Assembly (NCBI GenBank): GCA_947380295.1
Contig: CANCQK010000011.1
Coordinates: 27,975 to 91,974, forward strand
Reading direction: 5' to 3'
From: Bdellovibrionales bacterium
Lineage (GTDB): Bacteria; Bdellovibrionota; UBA1018
DNA: 64,000 nt
A program made the translations under genes and the position numbers. Below, piece after piece: positions 6,416 through 36,463 of this stretch; positions within the stretch are counted from its first letter, which is position 1, and every line of letters begins with the position of its first letter. The notes under the pieces are model-generated. The model was given only the letters and a program-made list of their open reading frames with translations. It was not told the DNA's origin and made no database searches.

Positions 6416-7453
6416 TTGTGTGATTGGTATGAATTTAGGGGTAAAAAATTGAAGAACTTTAATGGATTTGTACTTTTTAGTTTGCTCGCATGTTTTCTAG
6501 GACATGAGTCTTTTGCTAAGGAAATTCGGAGAATTTCGGCAAAGGAATTTAATGGCGAGACAGAGCGTTTTTACAGAGAATTTGCACAAGAACCCGTGAT
6601 TATTGAAGAGGCTTATGGTGATGATGACGAGCTCAAGTCTCTCACTCTCGATCGGGTAGAAGATTACTTCAAGGATCGAGTACTCTATGGATACAACCGT
6701 AAAAATGACGAAACAGGAAGAGTTCGAGAGGAAATTCCAGGTCCAGTTTTTTTTGCTGATTTAAAAAGAGGCGCATCTTCCTACTATGTTTTTGATCACG
6801 AGGTATCGGAGTCGCCATTTGCAGGACAGTTGGCGCCGCCATCATTTTTAGGTCAAAACTGGCTGGGTGAGGACCATAATTTGAGTCTCACTTTGTCTGG
6901 AAAAGGGAGCTTCACACCCTTTCACGAAGACGGTAGCGGCGAACAGGCCTGGATGTATTTGGTAACTGGAGAGAAACATTGGGTGATCTACCCACCTCAG
7001 TGTCGACCGCTGGTTTGGGATTCACTCTATAAAGATTTTTTCAATCCGAGAAAGTCGGATCGCTCGAGATTTCCCTATCTGAGCTGCGCAGATGCAGAAC
7101 GACTGACTGCCGTTGCACGTGCTGGCGATTTGATTTTCCTTCCTCCGGGGTGGATTCACCAGGTTTTGACTACAGAGGATTCCTTCGGCATCGGGGGAAA
7201 TATTGTGAACGAGTTCCAGGCGCTTGCTTCCGTGGCTACTGGGCTAAATGAAAAGTCCCATGCGCTACGACACGACTTCGATCTAACTCAATTGGTTCTT
7301 GGCAAAAGAGGCCAGTCCGTCACTGAGTATGGTCAAGGCCAGGTCAATCAGGCAATCGAGTTGATTGAAGTCTGGAGTCACCGGATTCGTGACAAGAGTG
7401 ATCAGCTCGTGCCGCTGTTGGCCGGCGTTCGGTCTGAAAGTGGATCCAATTGA
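6416..7453 (+). CDS. JmjC/cupin-type Fe(II)/2-oxoglutarate oxygenase-like protein with an N-terminal signal-like segment
   Basis: FTPFHEDGSGEQAWMYLVTGEKHWVIYPP together with PPGWIHQV fits the JmjC HxD...H metal triad and cupin core. FVLFSLLACFLGHESFA looks like a Sec signal peptide. The start is uncertain: TTG at 6416, or TTG at 6449 preceded by AGGGG. Confidence 0.7.
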   Translation: MCDWYEFRGKKLKNFNGFVLFSLLACFLGHESFAKEIRRISAKEFNGETERFYREFAQEPVIIEEAYGDDDELKSLTLDRVEDYFKDRVLYGYNRKNDETGRVREEIPGPVFFADLKRGASSYYVFDHEVSESPFAGQLAPPSFLGQNWLGEDHNLSLTLSGKGSFTPFHEDGSGEQAWMYLVTGEKHWVIYPPQCRPLVWDSLYKDFFNPRKSDRSRFPYLSCADAERLTAVARAGDLIFLPPGWIHQVLTTEDSFGIGGNIVNEFQALASVATGLNEKSHALRHDFDLTQLVLGKRGQSVTEYGQGQVNQAIELIEVWSHRIRDKSDQLVPLLAGVRSESGSN

Positions 7454-7509: not shown

Positions 7510-10305
7510 ATGGCACAGCACTCCGCTTACTTACGCAATTCTCAGAAGCCTCTCATCTTATTCCCTCTGCTCCTTGCAGTGCTTGCGCCCAACCTAGCGC
7601 AAGCCGAGCTGAGCTACCTCGATCTCAAAGGCATCGACGCGCTTGTAGATCACCCGGGTGCATCGCCGGTTTATGGCTACACTGCTTTAAAAACGGTCCT
7701 TGAGAATCGGCGGTTTTTTGGGAATTACGGGTCTAAAGCTGCGGCACACGGATGTATGGACGGGGCGAGCGCAATTCGCGATCACTTAGTGAAGAATCAC
7801 GACTGCCCACAAGACTTTACGTCGGAGTGGTTGCAGCGCTTATTCCCGTCCCAAGATGGGGTGAATTTCGTAGCAAATCAGGTTGATTCTGACCCGATCT
7901 CACATCTGCGGCCTGAGTTGATTGGCAAGCTTTTGCAGCGCATCCATGATGTGCCCGAAGGAGATTGGAAAGACCCTCAGACCGGTCAAACGCTCGAAGC
8001 TGATCTGATGATGGATCTCTTTCTTGATCTCAACCCGTCTGGATATGCGGATTGGATTAAGCGCCAGCGCAAGGAGCTAGGACGGTTGACCACGGAGAGA
8101 AATACGGCAGAAAAGAAAAGTCGAAGCGAAAAGTGCTCAGTCGAGGAAAGGGCGATTCTCTCTCAGCAAGCACAAGAGTTGAGTTCAAAAGTGGCGATGA
8201 TTGAGGCTTTTTTGGGTCGGACTTCCACACCCGTATCGGAACGGGTGAGAGTCAGTGCTCCCACCGATTTAGATGCGTCAGATGTCGGGTCGGAAAACGG
8301 GCGTAACTCCCCAGGCTCAGCTGCTAGTGAATCTCGCACTAAAGGTGTCGGTAAAGAAGCTGATTTTCGCAGCATCGCTCAAATGCTCGTTGGAGCGCTT
8401 AAGGAGTCCCGCTTGGGTACATCACCCAAGTACCTGCCTGAACAAGCGCTCCTGGCGTTTTTCATTCAGAAGAAGGCGAATTCTAAGACAGATCTCATCG
8501 AACTCTTCAAAGGGATGCCAAAACTCATTCGTAAAGATTCTAGCGCCGCTGATTTCTTGAGCAACCCAGAAAAGCAAGATGCCTTTTTCAAAGACCAGTG
8601 GAAACGCTCAGATTACCACCCTGAAATTCTCCAAATTAACCCAGCTGGCGCAGCCGCTGAATTTGCCGTCCATCCTGAGCTACTGGTTTTTTCAGTGATG
8701 GAAGAAAAACTCAAAGCTAAAGCGATACCCCCAATTCTGTCTTTCGGCTCGGCTAAGCACGACAGCCTGGGTGGTGGCACTTACCCCGACTGTGGAGAGA
8801 CGTCGTTAAGGAATTTTTTTAACATTGCGATTTATAATCCAAAAACAGGCAAGTTCGACGCGGGAGCGCTGACGCGTCTTAGCGCCGATCATCCTGAACT
8901 CAGAATTTCCCCCAGTCTCACATCTTTCTACCAAATCCACTCAGACCCTGCCTCGGCGAGTAACCAAGCGGTGCGAGACGCGTGGAGCGAGACGGTAGTT
9001 TCCCGGCATGCCGAGGTGAATTACATCAAGCCTTCTGCCGCCCCTCAATGCGAGATCAACGCTGGAGTGGATAATATGATGAGTGTGATCGATCCTTTGC
9101 TGTTTAGTGGACAGGGCAAACTCAAGATCGCTGCATTGCGATCCGAAAAAATCGACCTACTCTGCCAAATGCTCTCGCAAGAGGGTAAAATTCTGAGCTG
9201 GAGCGTGGAGGGAGCTAAGGACGAGAGCGAAGCCAAATCTAAGCTCAACGCAAATAACACAGGCATTCATATCCAATTTAAGATCAATAGCGTACCCGCA
9301 TTCTCCTGGGATTTTATGGGAGGGCATTTTTCAGTGCGAGACCTCACCGGTGTCAAAGATTCCTGGAAAAACTTAGTGGGCCAAGAGTTAGCTAAAAATG
9401 TGGCTACGAGTGCTCCTGGCAAAGTTCCTGCGCTACTTACCTGGTTCGGAAGCGGAAATGTGGTGGATGTGGTGGCAAGCACTCACTCAGTTGACCCTCA
9501 CCTGCGCGAACAACTGATCTATGCCCTACCTCTTTCCAACAACGATGGAAGGTTGGAGGGGTTTAGAAAAGTAGTGTCAAGCCCACTGGAGCAGGCTAGG
9601 GCTTTAAAACCCCTGGTGGATCGAATCCGAGCAAAATTACCCGAAGAAGCCGATCATCAAACCAAGCAGCAAATTTACGCCGCCCTCGCTGATGCGAATA
9701 ACCCTTATGAGGGCGACACCATTCATGCGTTGAGCAAACCCGATGCGGTGTACACCCGCGTCTCCCCCGAGAAGCTTGCTGAAAGATACGGACTTAACGC
9801 CGCCAAGAACATGGGCCGGAGCTGGAGTCGCGAGATGTTTGGGCGGCAGCTCATCATCGGTGAGCCGCTATTGGGCGAGAGCGGGCAAGAGTTGCAAAAG
9901 AACTTCGATGATGCTCGAGAAGCGTGCATCAGTCTCAACCCTTTCGAGCAACGAAAGGCTGTGAGAGAGGCGCTTCAAAAACGTGAAGCCGCGTTAGATG
10001 CTGCTCGAAAAGCTAGACCCAATGATTTAGAACAGAAAATCGCAGTGATTCATAGCGCCAACCCTATCCCAGGGGTCTACCTCATGAGCAAAGAGCAGTG
10101 GGGTGTGATTGAATGCGATTTAGGGTACCGTGAACAGAAATATGTCCCGCAGATTTTACCAAAGTTGAAGAACAGATTTTTTTGGTCGGCGTCGGGTCGT
10201 CCTCAAAGCGAATTTGGCGCCTTTCTCTTCGATGGTGGTCGTGGCGACGTCGGGGACAACGGCCGTGGCAACGTCAGATCGGTCCGGTGTGTAGTGGGCG
10301 GCTAG
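7510..10305 (+). CDS. large secreted multidomain protein (931 aa) with a DUF1566/Lcl-like C-terminal domain
   Basis: ATG start with signal peptide LILFPLLLAVLAPNLAQA|AE. A low-complexity or coiled middle region spans roughly aa 190-280. A YPDCGETSLRNFFN motif is followed by GGHFSV. The C-terminus FWSAS...FLFDGGRGDV...SVRCVVGG matches the DUF1566 pattern also seen at 35870 and 48988. Confidence 0.8.
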   Translation: MAQHSAYLRNSQKPLILFPLLLAVLAPNLAQAELSYLDLKGIDALVDHPGASPVYGYTALKTVLENRRFFGNYGSKAAAHGCMDGASAIRDHLVKNHDCPQDFTSEWLQRLFPSQDGVNFVANQVDSDPISHLRPELIGKLLQRIHDVPEGDWKDPQTGQTLEADLMMDLFLDLNPSGYADWIKRQRKELGRLTTERNTAEKKSRSEKCSVEERAILSQQAQELSSKVAMIEAFLGRTSTPVSERVRVSAPTDLDASDVGSENGRNSPGSAASESRTKGVGKEADFRSIAQMLVGALKESRLGTSPKYLPEQALLAFFIQKKANSKTDLIELFKGMPKLIRKDSSAADFLSNPEKQDAFFKDQWKRSDYHPEILQINPAGAAAEFAVHPELLVFSVMEEKLKAKAIPPILSFGSAKHDSLGGGTYPDCGETSLRNFFNIAIYNPKTGKFDAGALTRLSADHPELRISPSLTSFYQIHSDPASASNQAVRDAWSETVVSRHAEVNYIKPSAAPQCEINAGVDNMMSVIDPLLFSGQGKLKIAALRSEKIDLLCQMLSQEGKILSWSVEGAKDESEAKSKLNANNTGIHIQFKINSVPAFSWDFMGGHFSVRDLTGVKDSWKNLVGQELAKNVATSAPGKVPALLTWFGSGNVVDVVASTHSVDPHLREQLIYALPLSNNDGRLEGFRKVVSSPLEQARALKPLVDRIRAKLPEEADHQTKQQIYAALADANNPYEGDTIHALSKPDAVYTRVSPEKLAERYGLNAAKNMGRSWSREMFGRQLIIGEPLLGESGQELQKNFDDAREACISLNPFEQRKAVREALQKREAALDAARKARPNDLEQKIAVIHSANPIPGVYLMSKEQWGVIECDLGYREQKYVPQILPKLKNRFFWSASGRPQSEFGAFLFDGGRGDVGDNGRGNVRSVRCVVGG

Positions 10306-10543: not shown

Positions 10544-10789
10544 ATGACTCAATTCTGGACACTTCGTTCTTGGATCATTCGTGTATGTCAGGTCATAGTC
10601 TTGGTTGCCATTGTCCCTCACCGTCTAGCGCACGCCGAGCTTAGCTACCTCGATCTCAAAGGCATCGACGCGCTGGTGGATCATCCAGGCGCGTCGCCGG
10701 TTTATGGCTATAACGCTTTAAAAACGGGGTTCTGGCACAGGTGGCACAGGCAGGTCGCACAGGGTGGCACAGGGACGGAGCCAATTTAG
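10544..10789 (+). pseudogene. 5' fragment of a paralog of the 7510-10305 gene, truncated by the RAYT element
   Basis: It encodes a signal peptide followed by AELSYLDLKGIDALVDHPGASPVYGYNALKT. Nucleotides 10634-10727 match 7603-7696 at 85/94 positions. Homology stops at 10727 and the reading frame then runs into GGCACAGG repeats and a stop. Confidence 0.7.
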
Positions 10790-10860
10790 GTCTCGTGTTC
10801 AGGGTGGCACAGGGACGGAGCCAATTTAGGTCTCGTGTTCAGCACTTAGTCAACTCGGCG
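10733..10860. repeat. REP-like array: GGCACAGG iterations plus two perfect tandem 40-bp units
   Basis: The unit AGGGTGGCACAGGGACGGAGCCAATTTAGGTCTCGTGTTC occurs at 10761-10800 and 10801-10840. The related GCACAGGGACGGAGCCAATTTAG units recur at 56131-56260. Confidence 0.85.
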
Positions 10861-11084
10861 TTCTAAATTCGGTTTGTATCAACTTTTTAGGCAAATGAGT
10901 CGGCTGAAGAAGCGAGAATTCGGCAGGCGGGATCTGCTTTATTCTGGGGAAGTCTCCGATTCTTGGGTTTTTTGTGAAAAGGGTCGCAATCTTGATTTGA
11001 TTTGATCAGATTTGAGCGCACTCAGCCCTGCCCCGATCTGGAACCGAGGAAAAGTAAACGGGGTTGAGTTTCGAGCCGGACCAC

Positions 11085-11804
11085 TTAGGTCGGTGAAGCT
11101 CGGGCAATGGCTAAATTTTTTGCGTAAAGCTGTTCCTTCAGATGGGTTTCCATTTTTCTGACCCACACAGCATCACCTATGAAGTGACTTAAGAACTGAG
11201 TCCAGCTGACAGTAAATTGTTCAAGGTATTTGCGAAAGAGGACCCGATAAGCTCGCCGCCTCTCTTCGGGGGTGTTTCCTAGATCTACGTACCATTGAGG
11301 TGGAGTGAGGTGTTTGGTCCACTCATCGACTATTCCATAGGCGTAGAATCGGTAGGAGTTCCAGAAGAAGTATCTGAGTTTCTCGAGTTTTACCATTCCA
11401 GCACGGATGGGGTTTGCTTCGATGTAAAAATGAACCCGCATTGCCGCTGCGATGCCTCCAATCAGAGGAGTTTTTGGGCGTTCATTGGCGACTTTGCCCG
11501 AGCGCTTAAAGACTCGATTGAAGCGCATTCCAAAAGTGCCGTGAGCAACTCGCATGAAATGAGAAAGCTTGGATGCTCCATTTTGGTAACTCATTTGTTG
11601 GTGAACATGGTTGCTCATGAGGCAGAATGAGTGGATCTGGACCGAGTTGTCTGATCTCCGGTGTTTAAGGCCGTAAATCAGACTCTGAAAGAACAATTCT
11701 TTTGCCCCGCTCTGCTCGAGTAGGTAGGCACTGTCGTGACACTTCCAAAATAAGTGAACCATTCCTGTAGGTTGAGATAAAACTTGATAACGGGATACAC
11801 GCAT
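11085..11804 (-). CDS. REP-associated tyrosine transposase / IS200-like HUH (Y1) transposase
   Basis: 239 aa. HUH motif in LMSNHVHQQM. A Tyr-containing helix HFYIEANPIRAGMV followed by WNSYRFY is typical of the COG1943/RAYT family. The protein is about 95% identical to the ORF at 56483-57202. Confidence 0.85.
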   Translation of the reverse strand: MRVSRYQVLSQPTGMVHLFWKCHDSAYLLEQSGAKELFFQSLIYGLKHRRSDNSVQIHSFCLMSNHVHQQMSYQNGASKLSHFMRVAHGTFGMRFNRVFKRSGKVANERPKTPLIGGIAAAMRVHFYIEANPIRAGMVKLEKLRYFFWNSYRFYAYGIVDEWTKHLTPPQWYVDLGNTPEERRRAYRVLFRKYLEQFTVSWTQFLSHFIGDAVWVRKMETHLKEQLYAKNLAIARASPT

Positions 11805-11828
11805 AGTGCGCAGATCAGGTGAAAGAAG

Positions 11829-11893
11829 TGCGCCAATTCAAGCTCCGTCCCTCTTGTCTCCCCCCGTCTCTTTTCCCCTTGTCTCTTTTTTAC
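11829..11893. repeat. right-flank REP-like sequence (inverted relative to the left array) plus GTCTC-rich iterations
   Basis: CAAGCTCCGTCCCTC (11839-11853) contains GCTCCGTCCCT, the reverse complement of AGGGACGGAGC in the left array. It is followed by TTGTCTCCCCCCGTCTCTTTTCCCCTTGTCTC. Confidence 0.7.
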
Positions 11894-35869: not shown

Positions 35870-36463
35870 ATGGCAAAAAGGCGCGGATCACGATCCCTTC
35901 GTATGGGTCTTATTTTTTTTCTTCAGATCACTTTTTGGAGTGCTCCACCGGAGTGTTCGGCTGATGTAGAGAGTTCTGGGGTGGTGCAGCATTTTTTGCG
36001 AGTGATCCAATCTGGAGATCCTGTTTATAATCAGTTTTGTCAGGCATTTCGTAATCTGAGGCTCTTGGTCGAAACTCCAGCTTGGGAGGCGCAAGATCAT
36101 ACTTTAATTTGGAGTGGCCCTGCTCCCGGACTCAGAGAATATCATCGGGCAAAGTCCTACTGTGAGTGTATTGGTGCAAAGCTTCCAAGTCAGGAAGAAT
36201 TTTGGGCTTTGAGTCGTGCTCTAGGTGCAGCAGCCCCGCAGAGTAATCAGAGTTTGAGTGGCTACAATCCTAGTCCATTTCCTGCTTCCTTAGAGGATAT
36301 TTTTTGGACGGAGACGAAAGATGTGATTCGGGTGTATGCCTATGTTTTTTCAGGGTATGATGGCTATCAAGGATTAAACCACATTGAGACCCCGCGAAGA
36401 GTCGTTTGTGTGTTTAGATCGAGAGTCCAAGACCCGTTGACAGATCATATCCAGACAGAGTGA
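35870..36463 (+). CDS. small secreted DUF1566/Lcl-like domain protein
   Basis: It has a signal-like N-terminus (LRMGLIFFLQITFWSA). LIWSGP...YHRAKSYCECIGAKLPSQEEFWALSRALG...IFWTETK...YVFSGYDGY...RRVVCVF follows the DUF1566 pattern: W..A..C...g..LP...E...L, then yWs, then vRCV. Confidence 0.65.
   Translation: MAKRRGSRSLRMGLIFFLQITFWSAPPECSADVESSGVVQHFLRVIQSGDPVYNQFCQAFRNLRLLVETPAWEAQDHTLIWSGPAPGLREYHRAKSYCECIGAKLPSQEEFWALSRALGAAAPQSNQSLSGYNPSPFPASLEDIFWTETKDVIRVYAYVFSGYDGYQGLNHIETPRRVVCVFRSRVQDPLTDHIQTE

What the first reader, a model, noticed from the sequence alone, without database searches (positions are those of the whole stretch)
7510..10305. 931-aa secreted protein with a papain-fold-like Cys/His signature and the same DUF1566-like C-terminus
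**Seen in the sequence.** After the signal peptide come a conserved leader module (AELSYLDLKGIDALVDHPGASPVYGY), a charged low-complexity region (about aa 190-280) and a central region. The central region contains GGGTYPDCGETSLRNFFN (Cys codon at 8791) and, 178 aa later, SWDFMGGHFSVRD (His codon at 9325). The last roughly 160 aa carry the DUF1566-like domain with a helical insertion (EQRKAVREALQKREAALDAARKA).

**Established knowledge.** '(D/N)CGxx(S/A)L' at a helix N-terminus combined with a downstream 'GHF/HF(I/V)' is the arrangement of catalytic residues in C39-like peptidases and in UCH-type deubiquitinases.

**Inference.** This may be an exported cysteine protease or deubiquitinase-like enzyme. 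It belongs to the same family as the ANK-RING protein at 48988, so the pair could act on the same (host or prey) modification pathway.
Basis: partly seen in the sequence, partly recalled or inferred. Interest (0 to 1): 0.66.

Follow-up and report, generated by a model that had tools for sequence, protein, structure and literature searches.

The report
Exported Cys/His enzyme of unknown family
This gene encodes an exported three-part protein from a large, unstudied bacterial family whose central domain keeps one cysteine and one histidine in every relative, so it is probably a thiol enzyme, but it matches no known protease or deubiquitinase by sequence or predicted fold.

Summary

- **Conservation:** in 170 relatives, Cys428 is kept in 162/162 and His606 in about 158/159. 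Asn522 (94%), Asp102 (99%) and Tyr505 (98%) are also kept. Asp611, the proposed third residue, is not.
- **Structure:** AlphaFold2 models are confident (full length pLDDT 85.8; core aa 400-640 pLDDT 92.4). Cys428 is the first residue of a helix and His606 the first residue of a beta-strand.
- **No known relatives:** Pfam, NCBIfam, PDB profile searches and Foldseek against the PDB link the core to no C39, UCH, OTU or other solved fold. The only credible structural neighbour is an uncharacterised giant-virus protein.
- **C-terminus:** it is C-type-lectin-like, and Legionella Lcl C-terminal domain is the top fold hit. It carries a 43-aa helical insertion and scores below Pfam's cut-off.
- **Family:** about 1,900 clusters, mostly from uncultured Oligoflexia/Bdellovibrionota, Dependentiae, Paracaedibacteraceae and Holophagaceae. 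A conserved N-terminal module plus Cys/His core is joined to swappable ANK, LRR or lectin-like tails.

Best reading: a new family of exported, targeted thiol enzymes, most likely hydrolases. Spatial adjacency of Cys428 and His606 could not be measured.

The parts
7510..7602 (+). Sec-type signal peptide (aa 1-31, predicted cleavage after LAQA)
   Evidence: Read from the sequence. AF2 pLDDT <50 for aa 1-12 and 24-31. The Ala before the conserved 'AE' is kept in 88% of relatives. 113/141 N-complete relatives have a hydrophobic N-terminal segment.
7603..7959 (+). Conserved N-terminal module (aa 32-150) with the leader motif, DCPQD and QRLFPSQDG motifs. Asp102 (7813-7815) is 99% conserved and Arg68 92%.
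   Evidence: Invariant columns in A1. Conservation in 170 sequences. Present together with the core in nearly all members. pLDDT 80-96. No Pfam or PDB match.
7960..8355 (+). Long helical hairpin (helices 156-238) followed by a disordered charged/Ser-rich linker (aa 245-275)
   Evidence: DSSP and pLDDT of the full-length model. Composition. This segment is missing from most distant relatives.
8356..8721 (+). Helical subdomain before the core (aa 283-404), conserved across the family (Glu311, Leu314, Glu390)
8722..9384 (+). Cys/His core domain (aa 405-625), alpha+beta. Key codons: Cys428 at 8791-8793, Asn522 at 9073-9075, His606 at 9325-9327.
   Evidence: Core-only AF2 model has pLDDT 92.4 and pTM 0.86. 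Cys428 starts helix 428-441 and His606 starts strand 606-611. C, N and H are the only invariant columns in 28 diverse cores. C 162/162, H 157/159, N 94%. No PDB fold match. Matches a Yasminevirus protein at E 1.7e-7.
9385..9714 (+). Helical region after the core (aa 626-735)
   Evidence: DSSP. Conserved only in the closer part of the family.
9715..10305 (+). C-terminal region (aa 736-931 plus stop). A small beta/alpha unit is followed by an Lcl_C/DUF1566-like C-type-lectin-like domain interrupted by a helical insertion (aa 812-854).
   Evidence: Foldseek 8q4e_A prob 1.00 and snake-venom C-type-lectin-like chains. Pfam Lcl_C in 6/39 homologues. E 0.19 for this protein once the insertion is removed. 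36% identity to the C-terminus of the protein at 48949..50355.
10544..10727 (+). 5' remnant of a second, tandem family gene (signal peptide plus leader module only), truncated by a repeated element
   Evidence: 89% nucleotide identity to 7594-7696 (D4). tblastn 73% over 48 aa. No further family sequence lies downstream.

Best explanation
The gene encodes a Sec-exported modular enzyme of a large family that has never been characterised.

**Shown**
- The family shares a signal peptide, a conserved N-terminal module, a helical subdomain and an alpha+beta core.
- Within the core, Cys428, His606 and Asn522 are essentially invariant.
- Cys428 caps a helix and His606 opens a beta-strand.
- The C-terminal tail is interchangeable. 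Here it is a C-type-lectin-like (Lcl_C-like) domain. In most distant members it is ankyrin repeats, and sometimes leucine-rich repeats.

**Inferred**
- Cys428 is a nucleophile activated by His606.
- Asn522 orients the His or forms the oxyanion hole. Asp427, Glu430 or Asp102 are alternatives for that role.
- The enzyme works through a thioacyl intermediate and most likely hydrolyses a peptide, isopeptide or amide bond.
- The tail chooses the target. In this copy that would be a glycan or cell-surface ligand, by analogy with Lcl, which binds sulphated glycosaminoglycans (PMC11162425). In ANK/LRR copies it would be a protein.
- Given the bacterial lineages involved and the eukaryote-type repeats, the targets are probably in protist cells.
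For: **Residue conservation**
- Cys428 is kept in 162/162 and His606 in 157/159 relatives, down to ~20% identity.
- Asn522 is the third invariant column in the diverse core alignment A4.

**Structure**
- The models are confident, with Cys at a helix N-terminus and His at a strand start.

**Family size and architecture**
- 1,918 cluster representatives at E<=1e-3 and 422 at E<=1e-30.
- N-terminal module plus helical subdomain plus core is nearly universal, with variable tails.
- 34 of 42 long members carry ANK repeats and one carries LRR. Lcl_C appears in close homologues.
- One member has a CUE domain at E 7e-5.

**Expansion and context**
- Several paralogues per genome and tandem arrays, including the truncated second copy here.
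- No conserved operon partner, so it acts as a stand-alone enzyme.

**Distribution**
- Oligoflexia/Bdellovibrionia, Dependentiae (TM6), Paracaedibacteraceae, Holophagaceae and Myxococcales MAGs, plus a structural homologue in a giant virus, Yasminevirus.
- In the cultured Dependentiae member Chromulinavorax, 78% of ANK proteins carry signal sequences and are viewed as secreted host effectors (PMC6561590).
Against: - The distance between Cys428 and His606 in the model could not be measured, because no coordinates are available.
- No sequence or fold similarity to any known thiol enzyme, so the chemistry rests on residue conservation and local geometry only.
- A Sec signal alone takes the protein only as far as the periplasm. 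No route into a target cell is evident.
- A free thiol would have to stay reduced outside the cell.
- One relative is in Mesoterricola silvestris, the only homologue whose source name gives a binomial species; to my knowledge a cultured, free-living soil isolate. A eukaryotic target is therefore not required.
- Hydrolase versus transferase or ligase cannot be told apart.
Confidence: 0.45

Rival explanations
1. It is a very divergent clan-CA (papain-like) peptidase in the strict sense, related to C39, UCH or OTU, and acts as a deubiquitinase or UBL protease.
For: - Local motifs resemble C39/UCH signatures: D-C-G-x-x-S-L at a helix start and G-H-F-x-V at a strand start (sequence; the family signatures come from my own knowledge).
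- Cys comes before His, and His lies on the last strand of a meander sheet after a helical lobe, as in OTU-type enzymes.
- ANK/LRR fusions and one CUE hit, plus a RING-like paralogue sharing the C-terminal domain, hint at eukaryotic ubiquitin biology.
Against: - No Pfam hit at E<=10 for this protein, and none to C39, UCH, OTU or USP models in 81 relatives.
- No PDB profile hit.
- Foldseek with a pLDDT-92 model finds no cysteine peptidase among its best matches, although the PDB holds many OTU, UCH, USP and C39 structures.
- The acidic residue after the His (Asp611) is not conserved.
- The exported location of this copy and its lectin-like tail fit poorly with a cytosolic ubiquitin substrate.
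Confidence: 0.12
2. The Cys/His domain is a thiol-dependent transferase rather than a hydrolase. It could be a ubiquitin-ligase-like enzyme (in the manner of SidC or NEL effectors), a transglutaminase, a deamidase or an acyltransferase, directed by the swappable repeat domain.
For: - Catalytic module plus ANK/LRR tail mirrors effector ligases and modifying enzymes (the comparison is from my own knowledge).
- The fold is unclassified, as was the case for SidC and NEL when first solved.
- Extra conserved polar residues (Asp102, Glu430, Tyr505, Arg434) exceed what a simple peptidase needs.
Against: - No similarity to the SidC, NEL, HECT-like, transglutaminase or Cif/deamidase structures in the PDB.
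- The signal peptide and lectin-like tail of this copy suggest an extracellular site, where E1/E2-dependent ligation is impossible.
Confidence: 0.2
3. Cys428 and His606 are not catalytic. They bind a metal or play a structural role in a binding or scaffold domain.
For: - D-C-G-E plus a distant His could form a metal site.
- No homology supports catalysis.
Against: - A single invariant Cys and a single invariant His, with no second Cys or His conserved nearby, is a poor structural zinc site.
- A Cys at a helix N-terminus next to a strand-start His is a typical nucleophile/base geometry.
- Family-wide invariance at 20% identity is stronger than usual for structural residues.
Confidence: 0.1
4. 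It is a periplasmic or prey-directed cell-wall amidase of the NlpC/P60 or CHAP type, used by a predatory bacterium.
For: - The closest homologues come from MAGs labelled Bacteriovoracaceae/Bdellovibrionia.
- It carries a Sec signal and a Cys-then-His order.
Against: - No Pfam or fold match to NlpC/P60 or CHAP.
- ANK/LRR tails, and presence in Dependentiae, Paracaedibacteraceae and a giant virus, point away from peptidoglycan.
Confidence: 0.05

Closest known systems
   Same: - Cys before His.
- Cys at a helix N-terminus followed by Gly, with a small residue and then Leu one turn later.
- His at a strand start followed by an aromatic residue.
- A helical lobe between the two, as in OTU-type enzymes.
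   Different: - No profile or fold match.
- No conserved Asp/Asn after the His; Asn522 lies between Cys and His instead.
- 178-aa spacing.
- An extra conserved N-terminal module with a 99%-conserved Asp.
- No ABC-transporter fusion or double-glycine substrate context.
Legionella pneumophila Lcl C-terminal domain (Pfam PF07603 Lcl_C / DUF1566; PDB 8Q4E)
   Same: - Best PDB fold match for the last ~150 aa.
- Shared C-terminal ...FW(S/T)(A/S)...VRCV motif.
- Several homologues hit the Pfam model.
- Lcl binds host sulphated glycosaminoglycans (PMC11162425), which suggests a surface or glycan-binding role.
   Different: - A 43-aa helical insertion.
- This protein's own Pfam score is 12.4 bits against a cut-off of 34.9.
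- The domain is attached to an enzyme module rather than to collagen-like repeats.
Modular bacterial effectors that join a catalytic domain to a repeat-type targeting domain (e.g. IpaH/NEL LRR ligases, OspC-family ANK enzymes, SidC)
   Same: - A conserved catalytic module with an essential Cys plus interchangeable ANK or LRR domains.
- Paralogue expansion and tandem arrays.
   Different: - No homology to any of them.
- Sec signal peptide rather than type III/IV signals.
- The catalytic module is N-terminal to the repeats.
- The comparison itself rests on my own knowledge.
Yasminevirus sp. GU-2018 uncharacterised protein A0A5K0U8Z2
   Same: The only significant structural neighbour of the core: Foldseek E 1.7e-7, prob 1.00, TM 0.57 on the query, 246 aligned columns.
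   Different: Only 16% identity, viral, function unknown. Its sequence could not be fetched to check the Cys and His.

Membership tests
Peptidase C39 (Pfam PF03412) | Significant match to the family profile | tested here: not met
   No Pfam family at E<=10 for the 931-aa protein. No C39 hit among 39 + 42 relatives.
Peptidase C39 (Pfam PF03412) | Cys/His with a conserved Asp about 16 residues after the His | tested here: not met
   Cys and His are invariant, but Asp611 is D in only 13/39. Position 621 is D/E/N in 27/39.
Peptidase C39 (Pfam PF03412) | Fold similarity to solved C39 domains; fusion to or pairing with an ABC exporter | tested here: not met
   No such Foldseek match. Neighbours here are an RND pump and a JmjC protein, and no partner is conserved across 34 loci.
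UCH deubiquitinases (C12, PF01088) and OTU (PF02338) | Profile match or fold match to solved members | tested here: not met
   no hit at permissive thresholds.
UCH deubiquitinases (C12, PF01088) and OTU (PF02338) | Reactivity with ubiquitin/UBL substrates or probes | not testable with these tools
   Needs biochemistry.
Papain-like thiol enzymes in the broad sense | Nucleophilic Cys at the N-terminus of a helix and His at the start of a beta-strand | tested here: met
   DSSP of two confident models: helix 428-441 and strand 606-611.
Papain-like thiol enzymes in the broad sense | Cys and His side chains within hydrogen-bond or ion-pair distance | not testable with these tools
   Model coordinates are not exposed. 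Covariation analysis with 155 sequences gave only gap artefacts.
Papain-like thiol enzymes in the broad sense | Overall fold similarity to a solved papain-like domain | tested here: not met
   Foldseek on the core model: best E 0.57, prob <=0.21, TM <=0.16, and no peptidase among the 50 matches listed.
Lcl_C / DUF1566 (PF07603) | Profile score above Pfam's gathering cut-off (34.9 bits) | tested here: not met
   No hit for the intact protein. 12.4 bits, E 0.19, after removing the insertion. 6/39 homologues hit at E<=0.01.
Lcl_C / DUF1566 (PF07603) | C-type-lectin-like fold similar to the Lcl C-terminal domain | tested here: met
   8q4e_A is the top PDB match (prob 1.00, TM 0.53 on the target), followed by snake-venom C-type-lectin-like chains.

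The most novel reading that the evidence does not exclude
The core is the founding member of a new clan of cysteine enzymes with a fold not yet seen in solved structures. Protist-associated and predatory bacteria, and at least one giant virus, deploy it as an expanded family of exported effectors. Their specificity is set by swapping ANK, LRR or lectin-like tails, and their chemistry (protease, isopeptidase, ligase or other) is unknown.
Probability: 0.35. Interest if true: 0.8.

Novelty: new variant of a known kind. Interest (0 to 1): 0.6.

Why it matters
If Cys428 and His606 are catalytic, this is an unrecognised enzyme family of about 1,900 sequence clusters with no Pfam model and no solved structure. 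It is concentrated in poorly known bacteria that live with or prey on other cells.

- It would add a new class of exported, targetable thiol enzymes to the list of effector activities.
- It would give a function to a share of the many 'ankyrin repeat proteins' of Dependentiae and Oligoflexia.
- The near-invariant Cys and His give two ready-made control mutants for the proposed assays.

Tried and rejected
- **Covariation:** mean-field covariation analysis on 155 core sequences, meant to infer Cys/His proximity, ranked only gap artefacts on top. Abandoned.
- **Genome scans:** the scan with the single protein found nothing. The alignment-based scan worked.
- **Viral contigs:** the IMG/VR scan found no relatives.
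- **Literature:** a full-text search for the motif CGETSLRN returned no paper.
- **Core-only homologue search:** a word-index search with the core alignment returned only 16 fragments.
- **Cluster look-ups:** ten distant members gave only 'hypothetical protein' labels from MAGs.
- **CUE/PUB domains:** I looked for the single member with CUE and PUB hits among members that seemed to lack ANK repeats, and did not find it.
- **Diversity-generating retroelement:** DUF1566 domains are common targets of these elements (papers listed). I rejected this for lack of any template/variable repeat pair for the C-terminus in the window.
- **Conserved partner gene** (immunity, chaperone or secretion): rejected, as nothing recurs across 34 loci.
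- **PHROGs and PADLOC:** only noise.
- **Weak Foldseek hits:** recurring weak hits to GNAT-fold and FliN proteins were treated as noise (prob <=0.21, rmsd 8-19 Å).
Full report
**1. The observation**

The ORF at 7510..10305 (+) is real and encodes 931 aa.
- the leader module at aa 32;
- GGGTYPDCGETSLRNFFN at aa 421, with Cys428 = TGT at 8791;
- SWDFMGGHFSVRD at aa 599, with His606 = CAT at 9325;
- the helical stretch EQRKAVREALQKREAALDAARKA at aa 813.

The N-terminus reads as a Sec signal peptide by inspection (positive n-region, LILFPLLLAVLA, A-Q-A before Glu32). No predictor was available.

The window is ordinary chromosomal DNA at 46-51% G+C. It carries an RND pump, SSB, AlaRS and a molybdopterin oxidoreductase.

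**2. Library searches find no family**

- Pfam and NCBIfam return nothing for the protein even at E<=10.
- PHROGs and PADLOC give only noise.
- Profile searches of all PDB sequences return nothing meaningful, with either the family alignment or a core-only alignment.

**3. The family**

A word-indexed search found 43 relatives, mostly 870-980 aa. A full HMM search of 1.84 billion cluster representatives found 1,918 proteins at E<=1e-3, 1,147 at E<=1e-10 and 422 at E<=1e-30. Those that carry names are 'hypothetical' or 'ankyrin repeat' proteins from metagenome-assembled genomes.

A scan of one genome per species placed members in the following groups, often with 3-5 copies per genome:
- MAGs labelled Bacteriovoracaceae, Oligoflexia and Bdellovibrionia;
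- Holophagaceae;
- Candidatus Paracaedibacteraceae;
- candidate division TM6 (Dependentiae);
- Myxococcales and Alphaproteobacteria.

Some loci hold tandem arrays: three full genes in L016, two in L030 and two in L034. One member is from Mesoterricola silvestris, the only hit carrying a binomial species name. The closest relative is 56% identical and comes from a Bacteriovoracaceae-labelled MAG, so the window probably comes from a related bacterium (inference).

No neighbouring gene recurs across 34 loci.

**4. Conservation**

| Alignment | Result |
|---|---|
| 39 closest relatives | 19 invariant columns besides the start Met, including Cys428, Gly429, Glu430, Arg434, Trp492, Asn522 and His606; several lie in the N-terminal module (Arg68, Asp98, Pro100, Asp102, Phe112) |
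| 42 long, distant members (~20% identity) | Only three invariant columns: a Tyr, the Cys and the His |
| 28 diverse cores | Only Cys, Asn522 and His invariant |

Across all 170 sequences (numbering offset 17):

| Residue | Conservation |
|---|---|
| Cys428 | 162/162 |
| His606 | 157/159 (one miss is a one-column misalignment) |
| Asp102 | 143/144 |
| Tyr505 | 154/157 |
| Trp492 | 96% |
| Asn522 | 94% (otherwise Ser/Thr) |
| Glu430 | 92% |
| Asp427 | 91% (plus 7% Asn) |

**5. Structure**

The full-length AlphaFold2 model has mean pLDDT 85.8 and pTM 0.77. A core-only model (aa 400-640) has pLDDT 92.4 and pTM 0.86.

Both models place Cys428 as the first residue of helix 428-441, directly after a short strand. 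Both place His606 as the first residue of strand 606-611, which is the last strand of a meander sheet (562-566, 586-592, 595-603, 606-611). A helical lobe lies between them. This is the local geometry of thiol hydrolases.

I could not measure the Cys-His distance because the coordinates are not exposed. A covariation attempt failed.

**6. Fold comparison**

- With the full model, the only credible PDB matches are to the C-terminal domain. These are the Legionella Lcl C-terminal domain 8q4e_A (prob 1.00, E 0.096, TM 0.53 on the target) and snake-venom C-type-lectin-like chains.
- With the core model there is no credible PDB match: best E 0.57, prob <=0.21, TM <=0.16. No cysteine peptidase, OTU, UCH, USP, C39, NlpC/P60, SidC or NEL structure appears among the 50 matches listed.
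- Against predicted viral structures there is one significant match, an uncharacterised Yasminevirus protein (E 1.7e-7, TM 0.57 on the query, 246 columns, 16% identity).

The core is therefore either a new fold or too divergent for Foldseek to place.

**7. Architecture**

Region-specific HMMs show that the N-terminal module, helical subdomain and core travel together in nearly all members. The tail varies:
- an Lcl_C-like domain in about 60 of 170;
- ankyrin repeats in 34 of 42 long members;
- leucine-rich repeats in one of those 42, and in P0041/P0042;
- single weak CUE and PUB hits.

For this protein, removing the helical insertion (aa 812-854) makes Lcl_C the only Pfam family to appear, but at E 0.19 and 12.4 bits against a cut-off of 34.9. 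The C-terminus is therefore Lcl_C-like at fold level and is not a formal Pfam member.

It shares 36% identity over ~100 aa with the C-terminus of the ANK plus Cys-rich protein at 48949..50355, and nothing else.

**8. Interpretation**

The evidence supports an exported, modular thiol enzyme. Cys428 would be the nucleophile and His606 the base. Asn522 is the best candidate for a third residue or oxyanion-hole residue. Specificity would be set by the swappable tail.

Lcl binds sulphated glycosaminoglycans on eukaryotic cells (PMC11162425). By analogy, this copy may bind a glycan or surface ligand.

ANK/LRR tails, the bacterial lineages involved, the giant-virus homologue and the Sec-dependent ANK effectors proposed for Dependentiae (PMC6561590) all suggest eukaryotic targets. 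This is inference, and the member in Mesoterricola silvestris, to my knowledge a free-living bacterium, argues for caution.

I cannot tell a hydrolase from a transferase or ligase.

**9. Comparison with known families**

The motif resemblance to C39 and UCH (D-C-G-x-x-S-L; G-H-F) is real at the level of a few residues. Every membership test run here failed: profile match, fold match and the conserved acid after the His.

The protein works like a Cys/His enzyme. It should not be filed as a C39, UCH or OTU member.

**10. Verdict**

| Item | Verdict |
|---|---|
| Observation | Confirmed |
| Interpretation | Partly supported |
| Novelty | New variant of a known kind: an unclassified family or fold of Cys/His enzyme with interchangeable targeting domains |
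| Interest | 0.6 |

The decisive missing step is simple. Read the Cys428-His606 distance from the model, then test C428A and H606A proteins with thiol and ubiquitin-like probes.

Noticed in passing
window 10544-10727 (+): 5' remnant of a second family gene (signal peptide plus leader module). It is 89% identical in DNA to 7594-7696 and is cut off by an inserted repeated element, so the locus was once a tandem pair.
   Followed up: partly
window 10758-11867 and 56151-57300: Two copies (78-87% identity) of a ~1.1-kb element. Each carries a minus-strand IS200/Y1-transposase-like ORF (11085..11804; 56483..57313). The first ORF scores below Pfam's cut-off for Y1_Tnp (E 1.5e-3). Each copy has ~40-nt tandem repeats at one end (GGTGGCACAGGGACGGAGCCAATTTAGGTCTCGTGTTCAG).
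   Followed up: partly
window 6416-7453 (+): The gene directly upstream encodes a JmjC/cupin_8 hydroxylase-like protein with an apparent signal peptide. That domain is typical of eukaryotes. It is not found next to homologues elsewhere.
   Followed up: partly
window 48949-50355 (+): Signal-peptide protein with ankyrin repeats, a Cys/His-rich RING-like stretch (no Pfam RING hit) and an Lcl_C-like C-terminus (Pfam E 8.8e-5, below cut-off). It shares only that last domain with the 931-aa protein.
   Followed up: partly
window 35870-36463 (+): A 197-aa ORF whose product resembles the Lcl_C-like C-termini of family members by tblastn (29-36% identity). It has no Pfam hit, and would be a third lectin-like domain protein in the window.
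   Followed up: no
L016 2515-13793; L030 7482-12791; L034 7008-16915: Tandem arrays of two to three full family genes in Oligoflexia and 'Deltaproteobacteria' MAGs, plus a 93-aa fragment in L016.
   Followed up: partly
BFVD entry A0A5K0U8Z2 (Yasminevirus sp. GU-2018): A giant-virus protein is the only significant structural match to the Cys/His core. Its sequence could not be retrieved to check the Cys and His.
   Followed up: no
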